64,000 bases of DNA from a virus (IMGVR_UViG_3300029906_000003:1-64000), one strand, 5' to 3'. Positions 40,534 to 63,062 are shown, counted from the first letter of the stretch. Numbers and translations: made by a program. Notes: generated by a model from the sequence alone, not told the origin.

Positions 40534-40536
40534 TTT

Positions 40537-43102: not shown

Positions 43103-43643
43103 GATATTCTTTACTTCTGATTGGCATTTTTGTCATGATAAACCTTTTATATACGAGAGTAGACATTTCTCTGATATTGAGTCAATGAATGAAAGCATTG
43201 TTGAAAACTATAACAGCTTAGTTTCTCCAAATGATACTGTTTATTGTCTTGGAGACTGTATGTTGGTGAATGATGCGGCCGCCCTTGCTTATATTAGACG
43301 CCTCCATGGCAATATTAAGCTAGTCCTGGGGAATCATGACACGGCTGCCCGCATAAAAAAGTATTCAGAACTGCCTAACATTGAAATTCTTGGCTATGCT
43401 TATATGCTTAAATTAACAAAAACAAAAAATGCTTTTCTTTGTCACTACCCAACTATTTGTGATAATGGCGATAATAAGGTATTTAGTTTACACGGACATA
43501 CTCATTCTCGCTATTGCTTTGAGATGGTTGATGCAGAGTCTGATAGATGGACTTTAAATGTTGGTATTGACGCATGGAATTGCTGCCCAGTTCATGTTAG
43601 CCAAGTAATTGATTCAATACAGAAAGGCCCTTGGGCAAATTAA
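43095..43643 (+). CDS. calcineurin-like metallophosphoesterase
   Basis: SDWHFCH, GNHD, GHTH. Confidence 0.65.
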   Translation: MSEIFFTSDWHFCHDKPFIYESRHFSDIESMNESIVENYNSLVSPNDTVYCLGDCMLVNDAAALAYIRRLHGNIKLVLGNHDTAARIKKYSELPNIEILGYAYMLKLTKTKNAFLCHYPTICDNGDNKVFSLHGHTHSRYCFEMVDAESDRWTLNVGIDAWNCCPVHVSQVIDSIQKGPWAN

Positions 43644-43696
43644 AATAATCTTTAAAGCCTTACTCCTATAAAAAATAGGGAGTGAGGCTTTTTATT

Positions 43697-44146
43697 ATGA
43701 AATCATATAGACAAAGAGCTGCAAGGATACAGCAAAAGAAAGAAGAATGGGAAAAAGAAAAAGTCCTATTACAAGAAGAATATAATCTTAAACAAGAGAA
43801 AAAGCTCTTTAAACAAAAGCAGAAAAAGAAATGGTTTGATAAACTAAGCAAAATAAAAAAGCCAAATACTTCTAAAATGTTAATTCTCTTTCTGTTTATT
43901 AACTGTACTCTTATTGAATTATTTTCTTGTGGAATTATCATTTACGCATTAACGTTATCAAAGACGACTATGTTAGCTGTTGATTTTTCACCCTTGACCG
44001 CATTGATTGGCGCTATTGTTACAGAAGTTATTGGATATGCGGTCTATTCTATTAAATCAATGAAAGAAAACACTAAGGGCGGCATTACTTATGAAACAGC
44101 AATATTGAATGGAGGTCAAGATAAAAACAATGAACAAAATGAATAA
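43697..44146 (+). CDS. membrane protein with an N-terminal basic region
   Basis: ORF track; two TM helices. Confidence 0.45.
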   Translation: MKSYRQRAARIQQKKEEWEKEKVLLQEEYNLKQEKKLFKQKQKKKWFDKLSKIKKPNTSKMLILFLFINCTLIELFSCGIIIYALTLSKTTMLAVDFSPLTALIGAIVTEVIGYAVYSIKSMKENTKGGITYETAILNGGQDKNNEQNE

Positions 44147-44451
44147 AATAACTGACTTTGAATTGAAGTTCTTTAACTTATTAAAAAATGAACTTAAAAC
44201 CCAATATAATATTGACGTTGCTATTGATTTACAAGAGGAAAATGGTATTACTGATATTTTTGGAGACAACATAATAAATGCAATATTGCAAGTTCTCTAT
44301 TAGCAAACTCAACCAGCAAAGAAAGTATTATATAATATACTCAAAGAATTTATTCCAAAAGAATTAAGATTTGAACAAATAGTTACTTTTGAAGAATTTA
44401 GTTCTTTGATTGACCATATTTTATAGATTCTAATTTAGAATTAAGGTGATA
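44130..44451 (+). CDS. hypothetical protein with 3 in-frame TAG codons
   Basis: track ORF 44109-44303 continues ..ILQVLY[TAG]QTQPAKKVLYNILKEF...HIL[TAG]ILI[TAG]N to TAA. Confidence 0.35.
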
Positions 44452-44454
44452 TAA

Positions 44455-45119
44455 TTGAGTGTACAAACATATTCATTAAGGACACAAGGAGATAATTTTT
44501 TAAGTAAGAATTTTAGAGTGCGGGAGTTTAAGTGCAATGATGGTTCGGACTCAATCTTAATTGACAGTGACTTAGTTAATGTTTTACAAAAAGTGCGTGA
44601 CCATTTTAATTAGCCCGTAACCATAAATAGTGCGTATAGAACACAATCATATAATCGAAAAGTGGGCGGAAGCAGCTCTAGTCAACATTGTAAGGGGACT
44701 GCCGCAGATATAGTTGTTAAAAATATTAATCCTTTGGCTGTTGCTTTATACATTGTTTCTTTACCCGAGTTTGCGGCAAAAGGTGGAGTTGGATATTATT
44801 CAAGAGCTAACTTAAAAAGCGGCTTTGTCCATGTAGACACGCGCAGCTATGTAAGTAGATGGATTAGTAAGGCTGGAACATCATATTTAAGCACTTCTAA
44901 AATTATGCCTACAATTAAACGCGGTCAGAGAGATGCCACTTCAAAAGGTAGAATTAGTTACGCTGTAACTGTATTACAACGTCACTTAAAGCTAACTGCT
45001 GATGGCATCTTTGGGACTAATACAGAAACAAAAGTAAAAGAATTTTAGAAACAAGCAGGTCTTACAGTTGATGGAATAGTAGGACAAAAAACTTGGGAAA
45101 AATTAGGAGGATTATAATT
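44455..45119 (+). CDS. endolysin: peptidase M15 (VanY/L-Ala-D-Glu peptidase type) plus two PG_binding_1 repeats, with 2 in-frame TAG codons
   Basis: FRVREFKC..DSDLVNVLQKVRDHFN[TAG]PVTINSAYR..SQHCKGTAADI; C-terminal LQRHLKLTADGIFGTNT..[TAG]..QAGLTVDGIVGQKTW; TTG start proposed. Confidence 0.65.
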
Positions 45120-45503
45120 ATGGAAAATGTTTTAGGCTTTTTAGTTGGAAACTGGGTTCTGATTATTTTATGTATCGCGGCCCTAGCTTATTTGATTTAT
45201 AAAGTTTATAAATTTACTAAGGCGCCCACTGACGTACAGATTGCAAACCTGAAAGAATGGTTGAAAGGTGCGGTTACAGAAGCGGAGGCGGCCTTGGGGA
45301 GTGGAACAGGCCAATTAAAATTAAGATACGTTTATGATTTAGCTATAGAAAAGTTTTCTTGGCTAGAAACATTCGTTACTTTTGAACAATTTAGCGCTAT
45401 GGTAGATGAAGCCTTAGACTGGATGGACAAACAGCTAAGTGATAATGAAGCCATCAAAACCTATGTTATTAATGGAGACATTACTCCTATTGAATTAGAA
45501 TAA
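45120..45503 (+). CDS. putative holin or membrane protein
   Basis: starts at ATG directly after the endolysin TAA with RBS GGAGGA; one TM helix. Confidence 0.4.
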   Translation: MENVLGFLVGNWVLIILCIAALAYLIYKVYKFTKAPTDVQIANLKEWLKGAVTEAEAALGSGTGQLKLRYVYDLAIEKFSWLETFVTFEQFSAMVDEALDWMDKQLSDNEAIKTYVINGDITPIELE

Positions 45504-45517
45504 AATAAAATAATAAA

Positions 45518-45548
45518 AAGAGGTAGGTTATATATCTACCTCTTTATC
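45518..45548 (+). terminator. rho-independent terminator
   Basis: gaggtaggttatatatctacctc followed by tttatctttt. Confidence 0.55.
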
Positions 45549-45688
45549 TTTTGTTAATAATTATGAACAGTTCTTGTATAAAATATTGACAAATTATGAA
45601 CAGGGTATGTCTATAAGTAAAAATAAAAGGTAAGAGATAGATATTTCTCTTACCTAATTTACTTTATCTAATAAGTACATATACTATT

Positions 45689-45709
45689 ATATATATATAT
45701 ATATATATA
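45689..45709. repeat. (AT)10 microsatellite
   Basis: atatatatatatatatatata. Confidence 0.9.
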
Positions 45710-45893
45710 CTAATACCTTTCCTCTGGAGTATTTAAAACCAATAATCATCATCGTCTCTCTCTGTTAATATTGTACCAAAAATTTTTTGGGTTGTCAAGA
45801 GGGGAATTTTTGAGACTAGGTACGAAGTAGCATAAATGAGGATAGATTTTAAGCAAAATATATGATATAATGAAAGAAAAAGGGGAAAAGAAT

Positions 45894-46415
45894 ATGAAAA
45901 AATATCTTCAAATATATACAGACGGTTCTAGTCGTGGTGATAGACAAGGTGGATATGGTGTGGTAGTTATTGAAAATAATGAAATACCTATTCTTATTGA
46001 GTCTCGTCAATTTAGCAACGTAACGAATAATCAAATGGAATTAATTGCAATATTAAGAGCTTTACAATTAGCTTGTAATGAATATAAAGATTGCAGAGTT
46101 TCTATTTATAGCGATTCTGCTTATTGCGTAAATATATGCACGGATTGGATTTATAAATGGGAGAAGAATGGCTGGTCAAGGTCAGCTACTAAAAAACAAG
46201 AGATAAAGAATTTAGAAATAATCCAAAAGATTTTTTCTCTTTTACCCACATCTCCGCTGGGCTTTAATATCTGTAATTACAGTATTAATAAAGTACGCGG
46301 ACATACGGGTATATTCGGGAATGAACTAGCTGACTGTGCGGCCACAGGCTGTAAAAATAAAATTAAAAAAGCCCTCGAAGAAAAACACGTTACACAATGT
46401 ATCCTTGATTTTTGA
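45894..46415 (+). CDS. rnhA: ribonuclease HI
   Basis: IYTDGSS, NNQMELIA, IYSDSAY, VRGHTGIFGNELADCAA. Confidence 0.75.
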   Translation: MKKYLQIYTDGSSRGDRQGGYGVVVIENNEIPILIESRQFSNVTNNQMELIAILRALQLACNEYKDCRVSIYSDSAYCVNICTDWIYKWEKNGWSRSATKKQEIKNLEIIQKIFSLLPTSPLGFNICNYSINKVRGHTGIFGNELADCAATGCKNKIKKALEEKHVTQCILDF

Positions 46416-46471
46416 CAGAAAATTATATATAATATGATAGATAAAATACATAAAAAAGGAGAAAGGTAGAC

Positions 46472-48376
46472 GTGTCAGAAAAAGATAAAAATCTATATGG
46501 AAAAGACTCGATTGAGTCATTGAACCCACGAGAGTTTACACGTTTGCGGCCGCAGGTATACGCAGGTGATTGCACTTATTCTACGCAATTACTCGTTGAA
46601 ATTATATCGAATGCAGTCGATGAATACAATATTGGGCATGGCCGCGATATTTTTGTAACAATAGATGAAGATATATGTGAAGTAAGAGATTGCGGCCAAG
46701 GCTTTATTCCAGGACTAATTCGAGAAGATGGAATATCAGTTCTTGAAGCCGCTTTTAGTGTTCTTAATACAAGCGGCAAGTTCAAAAATGATGGGGCCTA
46801 TGAAGGTACTTCACTTGGCAGCTTTGGGATAGGCGCAAAGATAACTAACTTCTTGTCTCATTGGTTTGAAGTTGAAACTTACAGAGACGGAAAAAGCGAA
46901 AAACTATATTTTGTTGAAGGATTGCGGCAAGGAGATATGGTTTTAAGCGAGACTAAAGAAAGGAATGGGACGAAAGTTAGGTGGCAACCGAGTGAAGAAT
47001 TTTTTACTCACACAGAAGTTGATATTAAAGTAATTAAAGACTTATTCAACACAATTAGTTGTCTGTGTCCTGGACTTAATATTCTTTTAACTTATAATGG
47101 AGAAGCCATTCAATATTATTCTAAGAATGGATTAAATGATTTGTTAAACGATAAAGTTAAAAATAATGAAATTATTAAGAATAGATTTAATGCGAATATT
47201 GTTTCTGGGAAGAGTCGTTTGAATTTAGTTCTCACTTATACAAATAGTTACACTAGTTCTATCATTCCTTATGTGAATGTCGGTTTTACAGAGTCGGGGC
47301 CGCACATTACACAAATAAAGACTCTTATTACAAGAGAATTAAATAAGTTTTTTCGCGAAAAGAAATGGTTAAAAGAAAAAGATGAAAATCTGTCTGGCGA
47401 TGACTGTCAAGAAGGTATGAATGTAATCTTTAATATTACTGCTTCAAATGTCGGATATGATGCGCAAGTTAAAAGCAGAATAACTAAGATAGATATTAAA
47501 GACTTACTTACTCAACTTTCTATTGATTTTCAAAAATGGTTAGTCTTAAATGAGAAAGACATTAAACAGATTGCAGATAAAGCTCTGAATGCGCGTAAAG
47601 CGCGTGAGGCCGCACGGAAAGCTAAAGAGGTAGTCCGTAATAAGGGAGAGAAAAAGCCTAAACTACTTACTCTTCCCACTAAATTGGTTGATGCATGGTC
47701 TAAAGATAGGTCTAAATGTGAATTAGCTATCACAGAGGGAGATTCAGCTGCTGCAGGATTGATTGAAGCCCGCGATAGTGAAACGCAAGGTGTCTTTCCT
47801 ATACGCGGTAAGATATTGTCTGTAATGAAAGCCACAGACGAAAAGATTTGGTCTAATCAAGAGATAGTGAATCTTGTTAAGGCGCTAGGATTAGATGTCG
47901 ACGCAAAAACACGGAAGCTTGTTTATGATAAGACTAAACTACGATATGATAAGATACTCATGTGCTGTGATGGTGATGCAGATGGCGAGCAAATACGAAA
48001 TCTTTTACTCACATTGTTTTGGGTATTATGTCCAGAGCTAATCATTAATGGTCATGTATATGCAACTTATCCTCCGTTATTTCGTATAACAACAGCTAAG
48101 AATGAATATATATTCTTAAAGGATGCGGCCGCACTTAATGAATACAAGAACGCACATCAAGGCGAAAAGTATCTAGTCTCACGAAATAAGGGACTAGGGG
48201 AAAGCGACGGGGACGAACTAAGATATTGTATACTTGACCCCGCCACGAGAAATATTGAACAAATGCAAGTGAATGATATTGAAGATACTGATAAGTTATT
48301 TGATATATTAATGGGGCCATCTGTCCCGCCAAGACGCGAATATATATTAATACACGGGGAGGAAGCGAGAGTTTAA
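46472..48376 (+). CDS. type IIA DNA topoisomerase, ATPase/TOPRIM subunit (GyrB/T4 gp39-like)
   Basis: GHKL ATPase N-terminus; TOPRIM motif EGDSAAAG. Confidence 0.8.
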   Translation: MSEKDKNLYGKDSIESLNPREFTRLRPQVYAGDCTYSTQLLVEIISNAVDEYNIGHGRDIFVTIDEDICEVRDCGQGFIPGLIREDGISVLEAAFSVLNTSGKFKNDGAYEGTSLGSFGIGAKITNFLSHWFEVETYRDGKSEKLYFVEGLRQGDMVLSETKERNGTKVRWQPSEEFFTHTEVDIKVIKDLFNTISCLCPGLNILLTYNGEAIQYYSKNGLNDLLNDKVKNNEIIKNRFNANIVSGKSRLNLVLTYTNSYTSSIIPYVNVGFTESGPHITQIKTLITRELNKFFREKKWLKEKDENLSGDDCQEGMNVIFNITASNVGYDAQVKSRITKIDIKDLLTQLSIDFQKWLVLNEKDIKQIADKALNARKAREAARKAKEVVRNKGEKKPKLLTLPTKLVDAWSKDRSKCELAITEGDSAAAGLIEARDSETQGVFPIRGKILSVMKATDEKIWSNQEIVNLVKALGLDVDAKTRKLVYDKTKLRYDKILMCCDGDADGEQIRNLLLTLFWVLCPELIINGHVYATYPPLFRITTAKNEYIFLKDAAALNEYKNAHQGEKYLVSRNKGLGESDGDELRYCILDPATRNIEQMQVNDIEDTDKLFDILMGPSVPPRREYILIHGEEARV

Positions 48377-50710
48377 ATGGATATAAGAGATGAATTAAGA
48401 CAAAATGCTGTTGATTATGCATATGAAGTTAATGTACAACGAGCTTTCCCTGATGTAAGAGATGGATTGAAACTTGGACAGCGGGCTTGCATATGGGAAA
48501 TGTATGTACGAGGCTATGCCTCAAATAAACCTCATGTCAAGTCGGCAAAGGTCTCAGGAGGGGTGATAGCGAACTGGCACCCTCACGGTGACGCTGCAGC
48601 CTATGAAACTTTTGCGCGTATGTCTATGCCATGGATTAATAATATTCCAGAAGTTGACTGGCATGGCGCGAACGGGAACCAAATTATTGGAAACGCTCCT
48701 GCTAGTTCTCGCTATACTGAAACGAGATTATCAAAAGCAACAGAAGAAGGTATGTTGCAAGGATTAAAGAAGAATAATGTTGATATGCAGTTAAATTTTT
48801 CAGAAGATGAAGAATGGCCTGTTGTATTGCCTGCAATTATGCCTCGACTTCTAATTAATGGTTGTCAAGGGATTGGTTTCACTATTTCAAATTGCTGGTT
48901 GCCTAATAATTTAAAGGAAATAAGCAAAGTTATTAATGAATATATATTAACAGGCACTCTTAACTATGATAATATATTTCCTGATTTTCCCACAGGTGGA
49001 ATCATCTTAAACAAAGATGAAATACATAAGATATATGAAACAGGAAAAGGTAGAGTCGTCTTGCGCGGCAAAGCAGAAATTGATAAGGATTCTATTCTTA
49101 TAACAGAACTCCCTTATCAAGTTTTTGTAGAACCTTTAATTGAGCAAATTAAGAAATTAGTAGAATCAGAAGATATTCTATATATTAAAGATATACTTAA
49201 TAAAAGCGATAGAAAAAAGCTACTTATTGAAATTGAGTGCGAGAAGAATAAAGCCTCAATAGTTTTAGCTAAATTATTTGAAATAACAGACCTTCAAAAG
49301 ACTTACAATGCAAATCAATACGCCTTGGTAGGCAAAACTCCTCAACTATTGACCTTAAAAGATTATATTGATATTTATGTAAAACATAATATTGAGTGTA
49401 TAAAGAGAGAATATCAATTTGACTTAAATAAAGTCCAAAATAGAATGGAAATAGTTTTGGGCTTAATTAAAGCGCTTGAAGATATAGATAATATTATTAG
49501 TTTAATTAAGAAAGCTGATAATTCTAAAGATGCTCAAAATAAATTGATAGAAAGATATTCTTTTACAGAGAGGCAAGCGAAAGGTATTATTGATATGAGG
49601 CTTGGTAAGCTAGCTCACCTTGAGAAAATTGAATTAAATCAAGAGAAAGAAGAATTGATTTCTCAAATTAAGGCTTTCAATCAAGTTTTAAGTTCTCAAC
49701 AAAGTCAAATCCAGATTTTATTAGATAGATTAAACACATTCGTTAAGAAATATGGCTATGAAAGAAGAACAAAAGTTATTCAACTAGAAGAAGATAAGAA
49801 AGCAAAAGAAGAAAAAGCTAAAAGTATTCCTAGTGAAAAAACTTTAATCAAGGTTAAAAGTAATAATGCAATAGAAAGAGAAAACATTAAGGACATAAAA
49901 GTCCAAAAAAAGTATGGTAAGGGGACTAAGGCCAATAATGAGTCATTAATCACTTTAATTTCTTCTTATACAGATAAGTATATAATGCTTTTTACAAACA
50001 TGGGAAGAATGTATAAGATATTAATAAATGATATTCCTGAATTAAATACAAATCTTTCTGACTTAATAAAACTAAAAGAAGATGAAAAAGTAATCGCGGC
50101 CGCCGTCCCTGAAAATACCGAGACTAAGTATGTCGTGTTCTTTACACGGAATGGATTACTAAAGAAGACTAGTTTCAGTGAGTATAATGATTTGAAGCGT
50201 GGGAGCGGGGTCGCAGCAATTAAATTGCTACCAGGAGATTCTGTAGTGAATGTGATTTTTATTAACGAAGAAAATGTATTTATCTTAACCAAAAACGGAA
50301 TTGGTATTCAATTTGAAACTAAAGATATTAAAGCAATAGGAAGAAATACTAGTGGAGTAAAGGCTATTAAATTAGAGGAAGGTGATAGTGTAGTACGCGG
50401 CCTCGCGTCCTCTGATGATTCATACGCAAGTCTTGCAATCTTTACTGAAAATGGATATGGTAAAAGGATTGGTGTCGATGAACTCTTTATCCAAGGCCGC
50501 GGAGGTAAAGGTCTTCAATACTATAAGTCAACTGACGAAACAGGTAAGATTATTGGAGGAATTTTTATAAAGGATTCTGATTCAAAGATTCTGTTAAGTG
50601 GAGTTTCTTCTAATCTATGTCTTGCTGCATCAGACATAATTCAAGCAGGCCGCTATAGTCAAGGGCATCTTCTAGCAAAGAACTATATCTTATCAGCAAC
50701 TTTGTTATAA
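48377..50710 (+). CDS. type IIA DNA topoisomerase, breakage-reunion subunit (GyrA/ParC-like)
   Basis: N-terminal RAFPDVRDGLKLGQRACIW; 777 aa. Confidence 0.8.
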   Translation: MDIRDELRQNAVDYAYEVNVQRAFPDVRDGLKLGQRACIWEMYVRGYASNKPHVKSAKVSGGVIANWHPHGDAAAYETFARMSMPWINNIPEVDWHGANGNQIIGNAPASSRYTETRLSKATEEGMLQGLKKNNVDMQLNFSEDEEWPVVLPAIMPRLLINGCQGIGFTISNCWLPNNLKEISKVINEYILTGTLNYDNIFPDFPTGGIILNKDEIHKIYETGKGRVVLRGKAEIDKDSILITELPYQVFVEPLIEQIKKLVESEDILYIKDILNKSDRKKLLIEIECEKNKASIVLAKLFEITDLQKTYNANQYALVGKTPQLLTLKDYIDIYVKHNIECIKREYQFDLNKVQNRMEIVLGLIKALEDIDNIISLIKKADNSKDAQNKLIERYSFTERQAKGIIDMRLGKLAHLEKIELNQEKEELISQIKAFNQVLSSQQSQIQILLDRLNTFVKKYGYERRTKVIQLEEDKKAKEEKAKSIPSEKTLIKVKSNNAIERENIKDIKVQKKYGKGTKANNESLITLISSYTDKYIMLFTNMGRMYKILINDIPELNTNLSDLIKLKEDEKVIAAAVPENTETKYVVFFTRNGLLKKTSFSEYNDLKRGSGVAAIKLLPGDSVVNVIFINEENVFILTKNGIGIQFETKDIKAIGRNTSGVKAIKLEEGDSVVRGLASSDDSYASLAIFTENGYGKRIGVDELFIQGRGGKGLQYYKSTDETGKIIGGIFIKDSDSKILLSGVSSNLCLAASDIIQAGRYSQGHLLAKNYILSATLL

Positions 50711-50786
50711 TGTTTTGAGGTCAAGATTTTTATCTTGACCATTTTATTTTATTATGGTATAATTATTATAAGAAAGTAGGTGTATT

Positions 50787-52709: not shown

Positions 52710-52732
52710 AAAATAATATATAATAAGGATAT

Positions 52733-52906: not shown

Positions 52907-52920
52907 AGGAGACAAAAATT

Positions 52921-53241: not shown

Positions 53242-53246
53242 AATAC

Positions 53247-53275
53247 ATGGGACTCATAATGAGTCCCTTTTTTTG
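53247..53275 (+). terminator. rho-independent terminator
   Basis: gggactcataatgagtccc followed by tttttttg. Confidence 0.65.
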
Positions 53276-53286
53276 TAGGAGAATAT

Positions 53287-54905: not shown

Positions 54906-54980
54906 TATAGAAAAAACAAAAATAATATCGTATAATATATATGTAGTTTATAATAGTTTTTAAGATTGGAGAAAAAGTAA

Positions 54981-55958
54981 ATGAGAAAGAAAGTAATTAA
55001 TAATACTGTTATTTATGGATACGTTTATCAGCTAGGAACTACAGACAAAAACAGATTGCAGGTAAAGACTGTAAAGAATCCTAATTCTCCGAACTTTGGA
55101 AAAGAGTTCATTCAGGGCGAGCTTGATGTTGCAGTAGATGAAGATGGGTTGAACGTAGTCCCAATTCATTTTACTTATGTGACTCGTTACCAGAAAGATG
55201 GTAAGACTGAAAATCGGACTTATGGTATCTTGAAGTCTTTGATTGAAAATGAGTCTGATAAGACTTGGATTAGCGCGGGTAAGGAGAACGCAGCTAAGGT
55301 AAAAGTAACGACCTCTCTTGATGTAAATGACTTCTATAGCGTTAAGCAAAATCAGCTTGTTGCCGCGCTACAAATCAGAGGCTCTTTTGTTGATAATATC
55401 TCAACTCTTCCTGTAGAAGATGAAAGAAATAAGTTCGAAGCAGATATTCTATTCAATAGAGCAAGTAGAATTGAAGCAGATGAAGAAAAAGGTATCGAGC
55501 AGGATTATCTTGAATTGGGCGGAGCTGTATTTAATTTCAAAGGAGAGCTTTTGCCGCTAAAGTTCTGTGTCAGAATTGAAAGTGGTATAGAATACTTTGA
55601 GAGCCTTGATATTTCTTCTTCTAATCCTCAGTTCATGTCTTGCATTGGTCATGTTAATTGTATGACAGTCAGAAAAGAGCTTCATAGCGAAAGTGTGTGG
55701 GGCGAAGCTAAAGTTGATGTCTTTGAAAATAAGAGTAAGACTTTAGATATTACTGGTATTCAGAAGGTTTATGACTTTGGCGACGAAGATAATGGTATTA
55801 CTGCGGAAGAGCTTAAGACTAAGATGCAGGATAGACAGATTAAGTTGGCAACTATTAAGAAAGATACCGAAGATTATCAGGCTAATAAAGAGAAAACTAC
55901 ATCTTCATTTGATAAAATCCTACCTAAAGACGACAATGATGAAGATTATGATTTTTAA
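54981..55958 (+). CDS. hypothetical protein with an acidic tail
   Basis: ORF track. Confidence 0.5.
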   Translation: MRKKVINNTVIYGYVYQLGTTDKNRLQVKTVKNPNSPNFGKEFIQGELDVAVDEDGLNVVPIHFTYVTRYQKDGKTENRTYGILKSLIENESDKTWISAGKENAAKVKVTTSLDVNDFYSVKQNQLVAALQIRGSFVDNISTLPVEDERNKFEADILFNRASRIEADEEKGIEQDYLELGGAVFNFKGELLPLKFCVRIESGIEYFESLDISSSNPQFMSCIGHVNCMTVRKELHSESVWGEAKVDVFENKSKTLDITGIQKVYDFGDEDNGITAEELKTKMQDRQIKLATIKKDTEDYQANKEKTTSSFDKILPKDDNDEDYDF

Positions 55959-55980
55959 TGATTGATGGAGGATAAATAAT

Positions 55981-56334
55981 ATGGCAATAGATTTATTGGC
56001 AATTTAGCCTCACAAGGTTAGTCGTGATTTGTCGGGGTACGCAGTCTATGTGTACGGACCAGCTAAAGTCGGCAAGACGACATTTGCGTCCCAGTTCCCG
56101 AATACACTCCTTCTCGCGTGTGAAAAAGGTTATAGCGCAATCCCCGGTATCTATCCCGTGGATATTACCTCATGGCGCGAGATTCGTGATGTCATAAGAG
56201 AGTTGAAAAAACCAGCAGTTAAAGAAAAGTTTCATACGATTGCTATTGATACAGTAGACCTTGCTGGAATGATGTGTGAAAAATATGTTTGCGCTTAGAA
56301 TGGCGTAGATAAGATTACCGAATTGCCTTACGGT
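55981..56334 (+). CDS. Sak4-like/AAA_24 recombination ATPase, exon 1 (1 in-frame TAG at codon 9)
   Basis: MAIDLLAI[TAG]PHKVSRDLSGYAVYVYGPAKVGKTT..IAIDTVD..ITELPYG; splice site inferred. Confidence 0.55.
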
Positions 56335-57430
56335 CTAAACTTGGCCGCCTAAGATAGAAATATTTTAGTGAAAACAGAGTAAAAACTGGAAGGCTGAAAT
56401 GCTAATCAGAGCGGAAGTTGGATTTTAAAAGGTCTAACACGCGCAACGCATAGGACTATTAAACAATAAAAGGGAGGTTTGGCCTGAATGGCGAAACGGA
56501 GAGAATTTTCTTTAGAAGAGATAGAAGATATATGTAATTCTTATAAATTAGGAGTTCCAAGACAACAATTAAGTTTAAAATATCATTGTACAGATAAAGT
56601 CATAGTTAGGATATTAGAAGAAAATAATATAAAAATTAGAAGAGTAAAGAATCCAGGAAAACATCCAAAAAGATATAATGTTAATGAAGAATATTTTAAT
56701 ATAAATAATCAAAGCAATAATAGTGCTTATATATTAGGTATATTAGCATCTGATGGATGTGTAGCAAAAAATCAAAATCAAATTTATATAGAGTTACAAA
56801 GATGTGATAAAGAGCTTTTAGAGAAGATAAATAAAGAAATAGAAAACGAACGGCCAATAAAAGATTACCATAATAACTCAAAAAATTATGATAATAGTAA
56901 ATTATATTTCTTCTCTAAACAAATAAAAGATGATTTATCTTTATATAATATAATTCCTAACAAGACTGCTTATAATAATGACTTTTTACATAATATTGAC
57001 CCCAGATATTATATAGACTTTATTAGAGGCTTATTTGATGGAGATGGAGCTATTAAATGGACAGGAGGTTCTATTCAATGGCAAATTGATTCCACTTCAT
57101 TAAAAACTCTTAATCATATTCAAGAAATATTAAAAGAAATAGGAATAGAAACAAAAATAGTTGGCAAGTCAGAAAAACAAATAATCCATTATAATGTTTA
57201 TAGAATATACTGCTATAACTATGAAAACTGTTATAAACTTTATCAATTATTTTATTCTAAAGAAAATGTCATTTGTTTAAACAGGAAAAAAGAACATTTT
57301 AAAGAACTTTTATTGAAATATAAGTCCCACGAGACTCTGGGCCTGTAAAAAGGCTAAAAGATATGCTGAACTTATACGAATAAGTAAGTATAAGAACTAG
57401 AGGATAAAAAGCCTCTAGGATAACATAATG
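56335..57430 (+). mobile_element. putative group I intron (about 1.1 kb) carrying a LAGLIDADG homing endonuclease ORF
   Basis: separates the two halves of the AAA_24 gene; 5' exon ends in U, intron ends in G; P9-like hairpin CTAGAGG..CCTCTAG near the 3' end. Confidence 0.5.
56488..57348 (+). CDS. LAGLIDADG homing endonuclease (double-motif)
   Basis: YILGILASDGCV and FIRGLFDGDGAI; own RBS AAGGGAGG. Confidence 0.8.
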   Translation: MAKRREFSLEEIEDICNSYKLGVPRQQLSLKYHCTDKVIVRILEENNIKIRRVKNPGKHPKRYNVNEEYFNINNQSNNSAYILGILASDGCVAKNQNQIYIELQRCDKELLEKINKEIENERPIKDYHNNSKNYDNSKLYFFSKQIKDDLSLYNIIPNKTAYNNDFLHNIDPRYYIDFIRGLFDGDGAIKWTGGSIQWQIDSTSLKTLNHIQEILKEIGIETKIVGKSEKQIIHYNVYRIYCYNYENCYKLYQLFYSKENVICLNRKKEHFKELLLKYKSHETLGL

Positions 57431-58075
57431 CAAGGTTGGAATCTAATGAAGCGTGAGTTTGAAGATGTGTGCAGAAACATAACGCAATCTGGATACGCAT
57501 TGATTTTCATCTCACACGATAAAGACCGCACTATAAAAGATGACAAAGGGCAAGAGATAATCCAAATCTTCCCTTCCTGCCCGTCTAGTTTTAATGATAT
57601 TGCAAAAAATGCAGCAGATATATATGGATATGCTCAAAAGTATAAAGATGAATCTGGTAAACCTAAAGTTCGTTTGGTATTACGTTCAGCGGATGGAAAT
57701 ATTGACACAGGGAGTCGTTTCAAGTACATTCGCCCTAGTATTGAATTTACTTATACAGCTCTTGTCGAAGCTGTAAATGAAGCAATAGACAAAGAAGCTG
57801 CGGAAACTGATAACAAGTTTATTACGAATGAGAGAGAAACCTTCAAAGAAGAAGAAAAGCTAGATTATAATACTTTAATTCAGCAGTTCAATGAAGAAGT
57901 ATCTCTCCTCATGGAGAAGAATAAGAGTTATTATGCTCCATATATTACAACTATTGTGAATAAGTATCTTGGAAAGAATAAAAAGGTCTCTGACTCAACC
58001 CCTGAACAAGTTGACTTAATTAAACTCATTGTTGACGAAATCAATGATGAATTAGTTAGCAAGATGAACTTATAA
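57431..58075 (+). CDS. Sak4-like/AAA_24 ATPase, exon 2
   Basis: QGWNLMKREF..GYALIFISHDKD (Walker B region) continues the frame from exon 1. Confidence 0.55.
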   Translation, partial: QGWNLMKREFEDVCRNITQSGYALIFISHDKDRTIKDDKGQEIIQIFPSCPSSFNDIAKNAADIYGYAQKYKDESGKPKVRLVLRSADGNIDTGSRFKYIRPSIEFTYTALVEAVNEAIDKEAAETDNKFITNERETFKEEEKLDYNTLIQQFNEEVSLLMEKNKSYYAPYITTIVNKYLGKNKKVSDSTPEQVDLIKLIVDEINDELVSKMNL

Positions 58076-58147
58076 AGATAACGAGGTCAAGGATAAAACC
58101 TTGACTTTTTTTTGTTATTATGATATATTTATTATAAGGTGATTTTT

Positions 58148-58669
58148 ATGGGCTTAAGAACCTGCATTTATTGTAAACAAAAATTTGACATAGATAAAGT
58201 TGATAAAGCAACTTTAGTTAAAGTTACTCCATCCAGATATGCTCACAAAAAATGCTATGAAGATTTTAATAACAATAGACTAAAGAAAAAAGGAAATGAA
58301 GTTACTCTTGAAGCGGTAAAGGCTTATATTAATGAAGCCTTAAAAGGGACTGAAATTAATTGGCCTAATCTAATGAAAGAGATTGTTAAGTATACCAAAT
58401 CAGGATATAATTATGAAAGAATTTATAAGACTTTGATTTATTGTTTTGAAGTCAAGAGAATAGATAAATTTAAGTTTAATGGGCATATTGGATTAATTAA
58501 TAATTATTTTGCAGAAGCGGCTAAGTATTATAAAGATATTGATAAATATAACGAATTAAAGGCAATAGAAATAAAGAAAGAGGACGCGGCCAAGCAGATA
58601 AAAATCCTGCCGCCGCGCAGTAAACCAAATATAAAGTTAATTGATTTGGAGGAAGATTTAGGTCTATGA
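58148..58669 (+). CDS. hypothetical zinc-finger protein
   Basis: ORF track (start at MGLRTCIYC). Confidence 0.5.
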   Translation: MGLRTCIYCKQKFDIDKVDKATLVKVTPSRYAHKKCYEDFNNNRLKKKGNEVTLEAVKAYINEALKGTEINWPNLMKEIVKYTKSGYNYERIYKTLIYCFEVKRIDKFKFNGHIGLINNYFAEAAKYYKDIDKYNELKAIEIKKEDAAKQIKILPPRSKPNIKLIDLEEDLGL

Positions 58670-60195
58670 ATAAAAGGATTGTAGATATGCAAAGTAATCT
58701 TCAAGTATTAGGAAATTTGTTGTTGAATCCTAGCCTTTTAGACCAGCCAGAATATAATGTAATCAAAGAAGATTTTACAGAAGATTTACATAGAGTAATT
58801 TTTGCCGCAGTAACTAATTTGTACAAGTTAGGAAATAAAGAAATTACTGCGCCTCTCATTAATGATTATTTAAGAGATAAAGTAAAAGCCTATACAATCT
58901 TCAAATCTTGTAATGGTATTAACTGGATAAAACAAACTCTTGAAATTGTTCAATCTAATGGATTTAATTATTATTATAAGAGAATGAAGAAGTTCACTCT
59001 TTTAAGAATGTATAATGATATTGGATTAGATATATCAAATTTTTATGATGCTGATAATGCTTTTGATTTAAAGAAGAAACAAAAGCAAGATGAATGGTTG
59101 GATAATACAGACGTTGAAGAAATAGCTGACTTAATTGATAAGAAAATTAATTCTATTAAGTTAAAATATGCGAATGTTTCAGAGTCAGATTTTTTTGATG
59201 GCGGCGATGGCATTGTCGAGTTGATTGAAAGTTTTAAATCAACCCCTGATGTGGGAATGCCTTTATATGGAGACATTATTAATACCGTAACGCGCGGCGC
59301 TCGTCTCGGAAAGTTTTATTTGCGCTCTATGCCGACAAATACTGGTAAGTCGCGTATGATGATTGCAGACGTATGTAACTTTGGATGCGATGAAATTTAT
59401 AATATTGAGACTGGTCGCTGGGAAAAGAATGGCGTGAAGGTAGAAACTTTATTCATCATTACAGAGCAGAAAAAAGATGAAGTACAAACTGCTATGTTGG
59501 CTTTTTTGTCTGGTGTTAATGAAGAAAAGATTAGATTATACTCATATAATGAGGATGAGTTGCAAAGAATTTATCATGCGGCTGAATTAATAAAGAACTC
59601 TAAAATCCATATAAAAGAATTACCAGATTTTTCCATGCAAGATATTGAAAATGCAATAAAATATTCAATTAATGAATGGGGAGTTCAATACGTATTATTT
59701 GATTATCTACATTCATCTTTGAAAATATTAAGTGAAGTATCTAGTAAAGCGCGAGTATCTAATTTAAGAGAAGATAACATTCTTTTTATGATTAGTACTC
59801 GCCTTAAAGATTTATGCACGCAATATGATATTTTTATTCTAACTTCCACCCAGTTGAATGGAGGATACCAAGATGCAACGGTATATGACCAGAACCTGTT
59901 GCGAGGAGCGAAGAGTATCGCGGACAAGACGGATATCGGAATGATTGGACTTGGTACCACAGAGAAAGACCGCGAGACACTGCAAAATCTCACTATACAG
60001 CTTGGTGTTCCAATGCCAAATATAAAAATCTCAATATATAAGAACAGGGGCGGCCGCTGGAAAGATATTATTCTATGGTGCAATGCAGATAAAGGTATTT
60101 GTAGATATAATCCAATCTTTGTTACAGACTATAACTATGAGTTGATTCCTATTGTTGATTTAAAAATTAATGTAGAGGATTTAAATAATGCTTGA
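58666..60195 (+). CDS. DnaB-family replicative helicase
   Basis: N-terminal DnaB-like domain; RecA-fold motifs GARLGKFYLRSMPTNTGKS and KNRGG. Confidence 0.7.
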   Translation: MNKRIVDMQSNLQVLGNLLLNPSLLDQPEYNVIKEDFTEDLHRVIFAAVTNLYKLGNKEITAPLINDYLRDKVKAYTIFKSCNGINWIKQTLEIVQSNGFNYYYKRMKKFTLLRMYNDIGLDISNFYDADNAFDLKKKQKQDEWLDNTDVEEIADLIDKKINSIKLKYANVSESDFFDGGDGIVELIESFKSTPDVGMPLYGDIINTVTRGARLGKFYLRSMPTNTGKSRMMIADVCNFGCDEIYNIETGRWEKNGVKVETLFIITEQKKDEVQTAMLAFLSGVNEEKIRLYSYNEDELQRIYHAAELIKNSKIHIKELPDFSMQDIENAIKYSINEWGVQYVLFDYLHSSLKILSEVSSKARVSNLREDNILFMISTRLKDLCTQYDIFILTSTQLNGGYQDATVYDQNLLRGAKSIADKTDIGMIGLGTTEKDRETLQNLTIQLGVPMPNIKISIYKNRGGRWKDIILWCNADKGICRYNPIFVTDYNYELIPIVDLKINVEDLNNA

Positions 60196-61294
60196 TAAAG
60201 ACCAAATAAAAAATTCTTTAAGTATCAATCAAATCTTTGATTTTTTATCAGAGTATGGCGGCGAGCCAATAGTGAAAGATAGTAATACTATTATTAGTAA
60301 AACTATCTGTCATAATGCAATAGAAGAAATAAATGATGCAAGTTATAAGTTATATTATTATGACAACACTCATTTGTTTCATTGTTATACTGGATGTGCA
60401 GAGCCTAGCTTTGATATATACGATTTAATGACTAAAATCAAAAATATTAATGGCAATGACCAATGGAAAATGGCTAATTCTGTTTTTTATATAGCAGAGT
60501 ATTTTGGTTATTCTCAATTAGATTCAACTTTAAGCCAAGAAGAAAAAGTTTTACCAGATTGGAAAATCCTTAAAGATTATGATAAAATAAATTTAGAAAT
60601 AGATGAAAAACAAATTGTTGAATTAAAAATCTATGATGAAAAAGTTCTTAGATATTTGCCTAGGCCGCATATCTTAAATTGGGAAAGAGAAGGAATAACT
60701 AAACAGGTCATGCAAAAGAATAATATTTGTTATGACCCTTTAAGTCAAGGGATAGTTATTCCACATTATAATATTGAGAATCAATTAATTGGAATAAGAG
60801 AAAGAACACTAATTAAAGATAAAGAAATAGAAGGAAAATATAAACCAGCTTTTTTGAATGGGCAATTATATAATCATCCATTAGGATTTAATTTATATAA
60901 TATAAACAATAGCAAAAATAACATAAAACTAATGCAGAAAGCTATTATCTTTGAGTCAGAGAAATCAACTTTGTTAATGCAATCATATTTTCCTGGAGCT
61001 GATATTAGTGTAGCGTGCTGCGGCAGCAATTTAACTAATTATCAATTCAAGTTATTGTTATCTCTTGGCGTAAATGAAGTTTCAATAGCTTTTGATAGGC
61101 AATTTAAGAAAGTTGGAGATGAAGAATTTAAAAGATGGACAAAAAAGCTGGAGAGTATTAATAATAAATATAAAGGCTTTTGTCGTATTACTTTTCTGTT
61201 TGATAAAAAAGGACTATTAAATTACAAAGATAGTCCAATAGATTGCGGGCCAGATATATTTATGAAATTATACACAGAAAGGATTGCTATGTAA
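60188..61294 (+). CDS. DNA primase (zinc-binding plus TOPRIM)
   Basis: CHNAI..HLFHCYTGC zinc finger; TOPRIM IIFESEKS. Confidence 0.7.
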   Translation: MLDKDQIKNSLSINQIFDFLSEYGGEPIVKDSNTIISKTICHNAIEEINDASYKLYYYDNTHLFHCYTGCAEPSFDIYDLMTKIKNINGNDQWKMANSVFYIAEYFGYSQLDSTLSQEEKVLPDWKILKDYDKINLEIDEKQIVELKIYDEKVLRYLPRPHILNWEREGITKQVMQKNNICYDPLSQGIVIPHYNIENQLIGIRERTLIKDKEIEGKYKPAFLNGQLYNHPLGFNLYNINNSKNNIKLMQKAIIFESEKSTLLMQSYFPGADISVACCGSNLTNYQFKLLLSLGVNEVSIAFDRQFKKVGDEEFKRWTKKLESINNKYKGFCRITFLFDKKGLLNYKDSPIDCGPDIFMKLYTERIAM

Positions 61295-61298
61295 GAAA

Positions 61299-63062
61299 AT
61301 GGGTTTTAACTTTAAACTAATTAATCCTAGAAATGAATTATATACAATAGAAGAATAGATATTAACGAATCGTGGAATCCCTTATGAATTAGTTAGCTCT
61401 TATTTGGATAGAAATAACTTTGATGACATTGCTGAACCAGAAACTTTAGGAGAAGAATTGTTGGAGAAGGCGGCTAAAGCAATAGGAGAATGTATTGAAC
61501 GCGGCGGCCGCACCCTTGTCATAGTGGATTGCGATGTTGATGGGTATACCTCTAGTGCTTTACTTGTCAATTATTTAAATCGTATTGCCCCCACATGGGC
61601 TAAGGACAATCTCTTTTATTATCATCATACCTCTAAACAACATGGTCTGGGAGATTGTATAGATGAAGCGTTGAAATATGATTTAGTTATTTGTCCAGAT
61701 AGTGCATCTTCTGATGTAAATGAGCATAAGAGATTATATGATGCAGGAATACCTTTAATCGTATTAGACCACCACTTGACAGACATCGGAGAAAATACTT
61801 TAAACTATCCTTATGCTATTATTATAAATAGCTAGTGCAATGGATACAAAAATAAAGATTTATCTGGCGTAGGAGTTGTTTGGCAGTTCTGTAGATATTG
61901 TGATAAAAGAATGAACCGCAATTATGCAGATGATTATTTAGACTTGGCCGCGGTTGGACTAGTAGGAGATATGATGGATTTGAAGTCTATGGAGACGAAG
62001 GAACTAGTCCAATTAGGGCTTGGCCGCATCCATAATCCTTTTCTTGTTGGTATGTGTGAGAAGAACGCTTTCTCAATGAAGGGTGCAGTTAATCCATTTA
62101 CCGTAACATTTTATATTGTGCCTTTTGTTAATGCGATAACTAGAAGCGGAACTCAAGAGGAAAAAGAATTAATTTTTGATTCAATGCTTGAGTCAAAAGC
62201 TAATAATAAGATTCTTTCAACAAAAAGAGGTCATAAGTTAGGAGAACAAGAAACAATCCTTACGCAAGCTCTTAGGGTAGTTACAAATGTTAAAAAACGT
62301 CAAACTGATGCTCAAGATGCTAGTGTAGAATATCTAGAGCGCATTATCGCAGAGAAAGGACTGGCCGCGCACAAAACTTTAATTATCACTTTAGAAAATA
62401 ATAATAAGGTTGAACCAGAAGTTAGAGGTTTAATTGCTAATAAATTAATGGCTAAATATTGCAGGCCTTGTTGCATTTTAACGTTGCGGAATGACATCTA
62501 TGAAGGTAGTGCAAGAGGATATGAAAAAGGTAGTGTGAAAGATTTCAAAAATATATGCGAACAAACTGGCTTGATTGAATACGCGCAAGGTCATATGTCC
62601 GCCTTTGGTCTTAGTGTGGCTAAAGAAAATTTAGCTAAATTTATTGAGACATTAGATGATATTCTTGTAGATTTTACCCCTGATTCTTCTTACTTTGTTG
62701 ATTTTATTTATGAGAATAAAGATATTCCTGATAAAGACATTCTGACTATTGCTTCCATGAATGATTTGTGGGGGCAAGGAGTAGCAGAACCTTATATTGC
62801 AATTATTCATTTAAAATTGACTAAAGATATGATAACACTAATGTCGCCTGGCGCGCATCCTACACTAAAGTTTTCTGTCAATAAAATAGGTATTATTAAA
62901 TTTAAAGCTAGTCAAGAAGAATATGAACAGTTAATAGCTGATGGATACGTTGAACTTAATATTATTGGTAGATGCGCAAAAAATGAATGGCATGGAAGAA
63001 TTTCACCTCAAATACTTGTAACTGATTATGAAATAATTAGTAAATGTGATTATGATTTTTGA
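61299..63062 (+). CDS. recJ: RecJ-like DHH-family 5'-3' ssDNA exonuclease with 2 in-frame TAG codons
   Basis: One frame from ATG 61299 runs through the TAGs at about 61365 and 61836 and joins track ORFs 61404-61835 and 61911-63062. Motifs ILTNRGI, VIVDCDVDGYTS, VLDHHLTD. Confidence 0.7.

What the first reader, a model, noticed from the sequence alone, without database searches (positions are those of the whole stretch)
43275..61511. Extreme over-representation of GCGGCCGC and GGCCGC in a 30% GC genome
Seven perfect NotI octamers occur, at about 43275, 46546, 48125, 50096, 53743, 60050 and 61504. At this base composition the expectation is about 0.02 for 64 kb. At least 50 GGCCGC/GCGGCC hexamers occur against an expectation of about 2. 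They appear in coding sequence in different frames (Ala-Ala-Ala via GCG GCC GCx, or Gly-Gly-Arg), so the motif is maintained at the DNA level against the AT-rich codon bias. Copies also sit directly upstream of three leftward start codons as ..AAAGGAC(N)GGCCGC(CGC)ATG, at about 3063, 22183 and 1703. Possible roles are a modification or recognition site, a Chi-like recombination signal, a packaging or condensation signal, or the footprint of a motif-specific mobile element.
Basis: seen in the sequence. Interest (0 to 1): 0.7.

Follow-up and report, generated by a model that had tools for sequence, protein, structure and literature searches.

The report
Hyper-abundant GC words in gut phage
An AT-rich, roughly 140 kb gut phage keeps short GC-only DNA words (CCGC, GCSGC, GGCCGC) at 5-6 times the number its proteins and codon usage predict, on both strands, in every reading frame and between genes; sister phage clades show related "dialects", and the cause is unknown, much as for the HIP1 word of cyanobacteria.

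Summary
There are 7 NotI octamers (0.09 expected) and 88 GGCCGC/GCGGCC words (6 expected) in a 35.5% GC window.

The excess survives a null that keeps every protein sequence and each gene's codon usage: GGCCGC 77 vs 13.9, z 17. It is similar in both orientations and all three frames, and non-coding DNA is almost as dense.

It is not explained by GC-rich patches, paralogous repeats or palindrome avoidance.

NotI is not the unit. The octamer is rarer than its two halves predict (7 vs 13.8). Most of the signal sits in CCGC and GCSGC, and GGCCGC is the top hexamer.

The words are strand-symmetric and better conserved than other GC-rich words among strains 84-96% identical. They are gained about as often as lost. 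They are scarce in a recently inserted five-gene module, which also holds 9 of the window's 16 GATC sites.

The whole gyrase-carrying phage family shares a CCGC core with clade dialects (GGCCGC here, CGCCGCA elsewhere). Phages that share only the mobile module lack it.

Best reading: a lineage-specific, sequence-specific maintenance of word density on duplex DNA, similar in kind to HIP1. The agent was not identified. A Chi-like role fails the orientation test, and a mobile-element footprint is not supported.

The parts
1..64000 (.). Field of over-represented GC-only words on both strands: 401 CCGC/GCGG, 199 GCSGC, 88 GGCCGC/GCGGCC and 7 GCGGCCGC.
   Evidence: Densities are 6.3, 3.1 and 1.4 per kb. 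CDS has 1.42 GGCCGC per kb and non-coding DNA 1.12 per kb.
43275..43282 (.). NotI octamer, coding Ala-Ala-Ala in gene 43095-43643.
46546..46553 (.). NotI octamer in GyrB (46472-48376). The G at 46552 is derived in this strain: the relatives read GGCCTC.
48125..48132 (.). NotI octamer in GyrB, coding Ala-Ala-Ala.
50096..50103 (.). NotI octamer in GyrA (48377-50710), coding Ala-Ala-Ala.
53743..53750 (.). NotI octamer inside the TAG-recoded GIY-YIG ORF 53287-54237.
60050..60057 (.). NotI octamer in the DnaB-like helicase (58666-60195), coding Gly-Gly-Arg.
61504..61511 (.). NotI octamer in the RecJ-like ORF 61284-63062.
34800..39200 (+). Five-gene module that is poor in the motif and normal in GATC. 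It is absent from the closest long relative (L080), so it is a recent insertion and serves as an internal control.
   Evidence: It holds 1 GGCCGC and 2.7 CCGC per kb against 6.3 per kb for the window, and 9 of the window's 16 GATC sites. It is missing between the PurA-like gene and the RNA ligase gene in L080. Its homologues in other phages show no enrichment.
56350..58100 (+). Block with no GGCCGC or GCSGC (4 CCGC remain), holding a LAGLIDADG ORF that splits the AAA_24 gene.
   Evidence: 0 GGCCGC and 0 GCSGC.
11850..17200 (+). Motif-poor distal part of the giant repeat-rich, TAG-recoded ORF and the following gene.
   Evidence: 1 GGCCGC and 2 GCSGC in 5.4 kb.
3063..3080 (-).
   Evidence: Judged incidental.
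22181..22198 (-).
   Evidence: Judged incidental.

Best explanation
The NotI and GGCCGC copies are not individual functional sites. They are the most visible part of a lineage-specific genome signature.

Shown:
- A sequence-specific process acting on duplex DNA keeps short GC-only words at a high density. The core is CCGC, then GCSGC with a 5' base that is not A. GGCCGC is the top hexamer in this clade.
- The excess is independent of strand, reading frame and coding status.
- The words are lost more slowly than comparable GC-rich words.
- They are still being gained at about the rate they are lost.
- DNA that entered the genome recently has not yet acquired them.
- Related phage clades carry different dialects of the same core.

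Inferred (the mechanism I favour): the word is the target of a sequence-specific DNA-modification or correction activity of the phage-host pair. One candidate is a cytosine methyltransferase coupled to short-patch mismatch correction. The alternative form is weak selection on the density of such a recognition word. Either would work as proposed for the HIP1 word of cyanobacteria: mismatches or mutations inside a partial or full site are resolved towards the site, so sub-words and full words accumulate symmetrically on both strands over evolutionary time.

Confidence that this is a real, duplex-level, lineage-specific maintained signature is about 0.85. Confidence in the methylation- or correction-linked agent specifically is about 0.35. 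The single confidence value given (0.4) is for the whole statement including the inferred agent.
For: - Codon-aware excess: GGCCGC 77 vs 13.9, GCSGC 173 vs 69, CCGC 348 vs 197.
- Both orientations and all three frames are each 5-9x enriched.
- Non-coding DNA is as dense as coding DNA.
- Ala-Ala uses GCC or GCG as first codon in 90 of 130 cases, against 32% overall.
- Strand symmetry.
- Enrichment is hierarchical and sits mainly at the 4- to 5-mer level, which suggests an activity that also acts on partial sites.
- The clade at 84-96% nucleotide identity shares 17-20x GGCCGC.
- The wider family shares CCGC at 2.4-3.7x with dialects CCGCA, CGCCGCA and GGCCGC, and CCGC is the only enriched NCGN word.
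- Phages that share only the mobile module lack the signal.
- Conservation against L080: GGCCGC 23/31 vs 236/563 for GC-rich controls, Fisher p 6e-4. S third positions inside GCSGC are conserved 65/82 vs 927/1521 outside, p 7e-4.
- Polarised gains roughly equal losses.
- The inserted module is motif-poor and GATC-normal.
- The analogy with HIP1, including the methyltransferase-linked model, comes from PMC4390886.
Against: - No methyltransferase, Vsr or mismatch-glycosylase gene was found in the window, in the 6 kb beyond it, or in any roughly 20 kb locus of relatives. About half of the genome was not readable.
- One-step transition neighbours of the words are not depleted.
- Several inferred gains are transversions. 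These counts are small, and many gains lie in recombinant patches.
- Positions are not shared beyond amino-acid context with relatives at 45-59% amino-acid identity. This argues for density maintenance rather than site function, but it does not identify the agent.
- Conservation of the sites is equally what selection on a functional word would give (the argument of PMC5861425).
Confidence: 0.4

Rival explanations
1. The word is a selected, functional recognition sequence unrelated to methylation. Examples would be a site read by a phage replication or recombination protein (primase, nuclease-helicase) or by a nucleoid or packaging protein. What is selected is its density, and the orientation does not matter.
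For: - The sites are conserved above GC-rich controls.
- Gains include transversions, as expected if any mutation that creates the word is favoured.
- Dialects change between clades, as the specificity of a protein would.
- Density is about 1.4 per kb for the hexamer.
- The phage encodes its own DnaB, primase-like protein, gyrase, RecJ and UvrD-like helicase.
Against: - In a maximal-order Markov test the full hexamer and octamer do not stand out from their sub-words, unlike Chi, USS or HIP1.
- Spacing is over-dispersed, not regular.
- Positions are not conserved at larger divergence.
- No candidate binding protein was identified.
Confidence: 0.25
2. It is a purely mutational context bias with no recognition protein. 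Examples would be the error spectrum of the phage DnaE-type replicase, or context-dependent cytosine deamination that spares C/G flanked by C/G.
For: - The pattern is strand-symmetric and frame-independent, and it accumulates with residence time.
- GC-only runs of 6 or more bases are enriched in general.
- The S fraction at four-fold sites rises with GC flanks.
- Losses are mostly C>T.
Against: - The effect is sequence-specific, not a generic GC effect. T-GCSGC is 6-7.5x enriched but A-GCSGC only 1.3-1.9x. CCGC is 2.7x but CCGA 0.49x.
- GC-only hexamers lacking the core are conserved no better than average against L080 (46/93 vs 23/31 for GGCCGC).
- AT-rich phages that share only the module (34-37% GC) lack the signal, although L068 also encodes a DnaE-type polymerase.
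Confidence: 0.2
3. The words are Chi-like sequences that attenuate the host AddAB/RecBCD nuclease. The family-wide core TGCGG resembles Bacillus subtilis Chi, AGCGG.
For: - The words are GC-rich, share a GCGG core and are over-represented. The resemblance to the Firmicute Chi sequences AGCGG and GAAGCGG is from my own knowledge of those sequences.
- The host is probably a Firmicute: there are sigma-A-type promoters, and a published group of TAG-recoded gut phages (not shown to be related to this one) is predicted to infect Clostridia (PMC10607447).
- Chi-rich phages exist (PMC12315714).
Against: - There is no orientation bias: CCGC 201/200 and GCCGC 105/94. In L073-L076, GCCGCA is 18/24, 22/28 and 21/23 although the large ORFs (>=150 aa, listed for L073) are nearly all on one strand. 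Known Chi-rich phages show 20:3 and 32:0.
- The signal is a degenerate word family rather than one defined sequence.
- A relative carries a T7 gp5.9-like RecBCD inhibitor and still has the enrichment.
Confidence: 0.07
4. It is an artefact or by-product of amino-acid composition, codon usage, GC-rich patches, paralogous repeats, avoidance of restriction palindromes, or short mobile GC clusters.
For: - Ala-Ala dipeptides are 1.8x enriched, and the amino-acid order roughly doubles the expectation.
- A few copies lie in the internal repeats of the giant ORF.
Against: - A synonymous shuffle still leaves a 5.6x excess.
- The residual GC3 autocorrelation is only 0.03-0.06.
- A shuffle constrained to remove GATC, TCGA, CCGG and similar words gives the same expectation, 12.8.
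- Only about 3 of the 88 copies are in repeats.
- The sites align without gaps to relatives.
- Identical sequence was found in independent assemblies.
Confidence: 0.03

Closest known systems
HIP1 (GCGATCGC) and alternate highly iterated palindromes of cyanobacteria
   Same: - A GC-rich short word, hyper-abundant at about one per kb.
- Present in all reading frames and between genes.
- Lineage-specific variants exist.
- Conserved between related genomes.
- Function still debated, with methyltransferase-linked repair set against selection (PMC4390886, PMC5861425).
   Different: - Here the palindromic octamer is not the unit: 7 seen vs 13.8 expected from its halves.
- The signal sits in a non-palindromic 4- to 6-mer family.
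- The carrier is a phage family, not a bacterial phylum.
- No cognate methyltransferase was found in the part of the genome that I could read.
Chi-enriched phages (LLS, MD8, P1 class)
   Same: - A short GC-rich word is strongly over-represented in a phage genome.
- Density is of the order of one per 1-2 kb (PMC12315714).
   Different: Those phages show extreme orientation bias and clustering towards one genome end. Here the words are strand-symmetric and dispersed.
DNA uptake sequences (USS of Pasteurellaceae, DUS of Neisseriaceae)
   Same: - A non-palindromic word, equally frequent in both orientations.
- Present in all frames at about one per kb, with clade dialects.
- The USS core GCGG is the same tetramer (from my own knowledge).
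   Different: - Uptake sequences are 9-12 nt and well defined.
- They belong to naturally competent bacteria and act in DNA uptake.
- Nothing links a phage of a probable Firmicute host to uptake.
Word biases driven by very-short-patch repair (Dcm/Vsr in E. coli)
   Same: - Strand-symmetric and frame-independent.
- Affects sub-words of a methylation site.
- Lineage-specific (from my own knowledge).
   Different: - The magnitude here is far larger.
- The T-containing transition neighbours are not depleted.
- Gains are not restricted to transitions.

Membership tests
Chi-like recombination hotspot | Over-representation of the word in the genome. | tested here: met
Chi-like recombination hotspot | Strong orientation bias relative to the DNA end or replication direction. 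| tested here: not met
   CCGC 201/200, GCCGC 105/94, GGCCGC 53/35. The words are also symmetric in L073-L076, where the large ORFs (>=150 aa, checked in L073) are nearly all on one strand. Known Chi-rich phages show 20:3 and 32:0.
Chi-like recombination hotspot | Recognition by the host RecBCD/AddAB. | not testable with these tools
   The host is unknown. Only a binned MAG contig labelled Peptococcaceae was found.
Highly iterated palindrome (HIP) | A palindromic octamer that is itself hyper-abundant beyond its sub-words. | tested here: not met
   NotI is seen 7 times against 13.8 expected from its halves. No family member stands out at k=6-8 under a maximal-order Markov model.
Highly iterated palindrome (HIP) | Excess in all frames and in intergenic DNA. 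| tested here: met
Highly iterated palindrome (HIP) | Sites conserved between related genomes above control words. | tested here: met
   23/31 vs 236/563, p 6e-4. This holds within the clade only; it is not seen at 45-59% amino-acid identity.
Highly iterated palindrome (HIP) | A cognate methyltransferase encoded in the genome. | tested here: inconclusive
   None was found in about 70 kb of this phage or in the relatives' loci.
DNA uptake sequence (USS/DUS) | A defined 9-12 nt non-palindromic word in both orientations. | tested here: not met
   Both orientations are present, but flank information beyond about 7 nt is weak and the signal is at the 4- to 6-mer level.
VSP-repair-driven word bias | Depletion of the T/A transition neighbours of the favoured word. 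| tested here: not met
   GGCTGC 0.95, GGTCGC 1.22, GGCCGT 1.05, GGCCAC 1.11 of expectation.
VSP-repair-driven word bias | A Vsr endonuclease plus a C5-methyltransferase gene pair. | tested here: inconclusive
   Not found in the parts I could read. The genome was only partly accessible.
Mobile GC clusters or short insertion elements | Copies are insertions relative to homologues and share flanking sequence. | tested here: not met
   The sites align without gaps and differ by substitutions. The flanks are not conserved.
Restriction-site avoidance | Under-representation of the target word. | tested here: not met
   The sign is opposite for this word family. Avoidance does apply to GATC (0.07), TCGA (0.39), CCGG (0.38), CAATTG and GATATC.

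The most novel reading that the evidence does not exclude
The CCGC-core words would be a selected 'self' word system of a whole family of TAG-recoded phages of about 130-140 kb that probably infect Firmicutes (possibly Clostridia). That would make them a phage counterpart of HIP1, USS or DUS. A phage-encoded protein (a methyltransferase/correction pair or a replication-recombination factor) would read them, and its specificity would drift between clades (CCGCA, then CGCCGCA, then GGCCGC). In this reading the phage genome actively converts newly acquired DNA to its own dialect.
Probability: 0.3. Interest if true: 0.8.

Novelty: new variant of a known kind. Interest (0 to 1): 0.6.

Why it matters
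Hyper-abundant DNA words such as HIP1, USS/DUS and Chi are among the few genome-wide signals that act at the level of DNA rather than genes. The cause of HIP1 is still disputed after 30 years.

A phage family could make the selection-versus-biased-repair question directly testable, for four reasons:
- it has the same kind of signal;
- its genomes are small;
- it has clear clade dialects;
- it carries a built-in control, a freshly inserted module that is still poor in the word and rich in GATC.

Practically, the word profile (CCGC-rich, GATC-poor) is a sharp signature for binning these phages, for dating horizontally acquired segments, and eventually for host assignment.

Tried and rejected
- Megablast of 10 kb against GenBank phages gave no match. 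tblastn found only distant gyrases and one 70%-identity module hit.
- The single genome-contig scan gave only a 7.9 kb MAG contig labelled Peptococcaceae and an irrelevant Halomonas hit, so the host was not identified.
- The 61 IMG/VR loci found with the OmpA-domain protein share only a mobile module, not the backbone. They are still useful as negative controls.
- The GC-rich-patch idea was rejected by the GC3 autocorrelation.
- The by-product-of-palindrome-avoidance idea was rejected by the constrained shuffle.
- GCWGC avoidance as the cause was rejected. Depletion is seen only where the central base is synonymous, and it cannot explain the excess in frames 1 and 2 or pairs such as GGC-CGC and CGG-CCA.
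- The paralogous-repeat explanation was rejected.
- Multi-nucleotide motif-creating changes at first looked like templated conversion, but they lie in generally divergent recombinant patches.
- The PurA-like gene was checked as a possible PurZ (a 2-aminoadenine genome). It matches ordinary adenylosuccinate synthetases only weakly, so this is unresolved.
- Literature searches for GGCCGC or GC-word over-representation in phages found nothing relevant.
- Look-up of the exact protein 10277-11761 failed, because that ORF is part of a TAG-recoded giant gene.
Full report
**1. What the window is**

The window is part of a phage genome of about 140 kb.
- Exact copies of its genes lie on ENA contigs of 140,124 and 65,234 bp and on Logan contigs. 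All are 100% identical to the window over 10-21 kb.
- It encodes GyrB, GyrA, an NAD-dependent ligase, a DnaB-like helicase, an RNA ligase, ThyX, YorF/YorH-like proteins, a RecJ-like protein, a sigma factor and 23 tRNAs. Just beyond the window lie a UvrD-like helicase and a DnaE-type polymerase.
- TAG is read through in several genes: RecJ-like 61284-63062, GIY-YIG 53287-54237 with 11 TAG, and a 2,608-codon repeat-rich ORF at 8297-16123.
- Promoter-like TTGACA-N17-TATAAT repeats point to a Firmicute host. A published group of 136 kb TAG-recoded gut phages is predicted to infect Clostridia (PMC10607447). That phage group was not shown to be related to this one. The host itself was not identified.

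**2. The observation**
- The seven NotI octamers are at the stated coordinates, against 0.09 expected.
- GGCCGC/GCGGCC occurs 88 times against 6.2 +/- 2.2 expected.
- The window is 35.5% GC, not 30%.
- The hits are spread over the whole window.

**3. Is it more than codons and amino acids?** Yes.
- I re-called genes with TAG as a sense codon (69 genes, 54 kb) and shuffled synonymous codons within each gene. This keeps every protein and each gene's codon usage. It predicts 13.9 GGCCGC (77 observed, z 17), 69 GCSGC (173 observed), 197 CCGC (348 observed) and 0.48 NotI (7 observed) (an earlier version is).
- On the sense strand, GGCCGC is 6.4x enriched and its complement GCGGCC 5.4x. Each of the three frames is 5-9x enriched.
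- Non-coding DNA is nearly as dense as coding DNA, 1.12 vs 1.42 per kb, although it is only 31% GC.
- A concrete example: Ala-Ala uses GCC or GCG as first codon in 90 of 130 cases against 32% for Ala overall. GGC-CGC encodes 12 of 44 Gly-Arg pairs against 1.8 expected.

**4. Trivial causes excluded**
- GC-rich patches: the residual GC3 autocorrelation is only 0.03-0.06.
- Paralogous repeats: about 3 of the 88 copies lie in repeats.
- By-product of palindrome avoidance: a synonymous shuffle constrained so as not to add GATC, TCGA, CCGG, CAATTG, GATATC, GGGCCC or GCCGGC still predicts 12.8 GGCCGC.
- Assembly artefact: identical sequence occurs in independent assemblies.
- Insertion elements: the sites align without gaps to relatives.

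**5. What the unit is**
- NotI is not the unit. Of 134 GGCC sites, 53 are followed by GC and 35 are preceded by GC, so 13.8 octamers are expected by independence and 7 are seen.
- Under a maximal-order Markov model the strongest signal is the tetramer CCGC/GCGG (401 vs 235, z 10.8). Smaller increments come at GGCCG and GCGGC, and nothing from this family stands out at k=6-8.
- Against a first-order model the ranking is GGCCGC 13x, GCCGCG 9.7x, CGGCCG 6.4x, GCCGCC 6.1x. GC-only hexamers that contain CCGG, and GGGCCC, are depleted.
- The core is GCSGC (199 vs 35). Its flanks are specific: G, T or C on the 5' side gives 5-13x, but A only 1.3-1.9x.
- TGCSGCA occurs 34 times against 6 for TGCWGCA.
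- Among the NCGN tetramers only CCGC is enriched. CCGA (0.49), CCGG (0.38) and TCGA (0.39) are depleted.
- GC-only runs of 6 or more bases are enriched in general. The base-specific flank effects show that this is sequence recognition, not merely GC clustering.

**6. Strand and position**
- The words are strand-symmetric: CCGC 201/200, GCCGC 105/94 and GGCCGC 53/35.
- Spacing is over-dispersed.
- Motif-poor blocks are at 34.1-37.1 kb, 11.9-17.2 kb and 56.3-58.5 kb.
- The first block is a five-gene module (ABC-permease-like, PspA, OmpA-domain and two others) that is absent from the closest long relative, L080. It has 2.7 CCGC per kb against 6.3 for the window, a single GGCCGC, and 9 of the window's 16 GATC sites.
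- Homologues of this module in 60-odd other phages have normal GATC and no GGCCGC excess.
- So the word excess and the GATC avoidance both behave as signatures that DNA acquires with residence time in this lineage.

**7. Phylogenetic distribution**

| Group | Relation to the window | GC | Word statistics |
|---|---|---|---|
| L070, L071, L080, L081, L082 | strains 84-96% identical in nucleotides | about 33-35% (L080-L082) | L080-L082: GGCCGC 17-20x, 0-2 GATC per locus; L070/L071: 13-14 GGCCGC words in about 10 kb |
| L083 | GyrB 68% identical | 34.6% | CCGC 2.75x, GCCGCA 8x, GGCCGC 8x |
| L084 | GyrB 65% identical | 25.5% | CCGC 3.7x, CCGCA 6.6x, no GGCCGC |
| L073, L074, L076 | GyrA about 50% identical | 38-40% | CCGCA 4.6x, GCCGCA 8x, CGCCGCA 19x, GGCCGC about 2x |

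- In the last group the non-palindromic GCCGCA is again equally frequent on both strands (18/24, 22/28, 21/23), although the large ORFs (>=150 aa, listed for L073) are nearly all on the + strand.
- The family therefore shares a CCGC(A) core with clade-specific extensions, which I call dialects.

**8. Dynamics within the clade**
- Against L080 (86% identity), 23 of 31 GGCCGC words are intact. Only 236 of 563 control GC-rich hexamers are intact (Fisher p 6e-4).
- G/C third positions inside GCSGC are conserved 65/82 against 927/1521 outside (p 7e-4).
- GC-only hexamers without the core are no better conserved than average against L080 (46/93). GCWGC words are very unstable (3/14).
- Three-taxon polarisation gives roughly equal gains and losses: GCSGC 6 gains and 4 losses on the window branch, 5 gains and 3 losses on the L081 branch.
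- Losses are mostly C>T. Gains include transversions, many of them inside recombinant patches.
- With a 5.6-fold excess, neutral decay would give many more losses than gains. The excess is therefore actively maintained.
- At 45-59% amino-acid identity the positions are shared no more than the amino-acid context predicts. What is maintained is density, not particular sites.

**9. Mechanism**

The data show a lineage-specific, sequence-specific, strand-blind process on duplex DNA that lowers the loss rate of these words and keeps replacing them. Known kinds of system that do this:
- (a) Methyltransferase-linked short-patch correction (Vsr-type). This is the model proposed for HIP1 (PMC4390886).
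- (b) Selection on the density of a recognition word. This is the conclusion drawn for HIP1 from site conservation (PMC5861425).
- (c) A polymerase or deamination context bias.

I favour (a)/(b), a recognised word, because of the base-specific flanks, the motif-specific conservation and the dialects. Within that I lean towards a modification or correction enzyme, because sub-words are enriched hierarchically and symmetrically.

The evidence is indirect. No methyltransferase or Vsr gene is present in the parts I could read. Transition neighbours are not depleted. Gains are not limited to transitions.

A Chi-like role is attractive because the core TGCGG resembles Firmicute Chi sequences, a resemblance I draw from my own knowledge. 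It fails the defining orientation test: Chi-rich phages show 20:3 and 32:0 (PMC12315714). A relative that carries a gp5.9-like RecBCD inhibitor still has the excess.

**10. Verdict**

The emphasis on NotI and two of the proposed roles (Chi-like signal, mobile-element footprint) are not supported. A modification or recognition word remains the best lead.

I found no description of this signal in the literature I could search. It is best filed as a new variant of the class of hyper-abundant DNA words, seen here in a family of TAG-recoded gut phages.

Noticed in passing
window 8297-16123, 28758-29585, 40537-41331, 53287-54237, 61284-63062: TAG is used as a sense codon (probably Gln, genetic code 15) in a subset of genes. 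The 316-codon GIY-YIG ORF and the 2,608-codon repeat-rich ORF each have 11 in-frame TAGs. None of the 23 tRNAs in the window has a CTA anticodon.
   Followed up: partly
window 34800-39200: A five-gene module (ABC-permease-like, PspA, OmpA-domain protein and two others) is absent from the closest relative, L080. It carries 9 of the window's 16 GATC sites and almost none of the GC words, so it is a recent horizontal insertion. It is shared with many otherwise unrelated gut phages.
   Followed up: yes
whole window: Strong avoidance of GATC (0.07 of expectation; near zero outside the inserted module), TCGA (0.39), CCGG (0.38), CAATTG, GATATC and GGGCCC. This suggests a host with several type II restriction systems.
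   Followed up: partly
whole window; also L083: A second over-represented hexamer, CAATAG/CTATTG. It occurs 105 times vs 60 under a maximal-order Markov model and 91 vs 51 in the codon-aware null. It falls mostly in frame 1 on both strands and is also enriched in relative L083. The cause is unknown.
   Followed up: partly
window 3152-33603 (minus-strand copies) and 33630-63129 (plus-strand copies): More than a dozen sigma-A-type promoter-like repeats: TTGACA, a 17-nt spacer with a TG extension, then TATAAT. They sit in front of gene blocks and tRNA clusters.
   Followed up: no
window 55981-58075; 21029-21781; 53287-54237: The AAA_24 recombinase-like gene is split by a LAGLIDADG ORF, probably an intron or intein. 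Several GIY-YIG homing-endonuclease-like ORFs are present. In relative L080, gyrA and gyrB are also interrupted.
   Followed up: no
window 33697-34881: An adenylosuccinate-synthetase-like gene (394 aa) is only distantly similar to PurA structures (E about 1e-12). I did not resolve whether it is an auxiliary PurA or a PurZ-type enzyme of a modified-base pathway.
   Followed up: partly
L083 5046-5294; L084 14338-15489: Family members carry different counter-defence genes in the same backbone: a T7 gp5.9-like RecBCD inhibitor in L083 and a Mom-like DNA modification protein in L084.
   Followed up: no
window 20175-30584: 23 tRNA genes, all on the minus strand. Several are unusually long (87-96 nt), for example Phe(aaa) at 21757-21852 and Glu(ttc) at 27824-27916. 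These may contain introns or be mispredicted.
   Followed up: no
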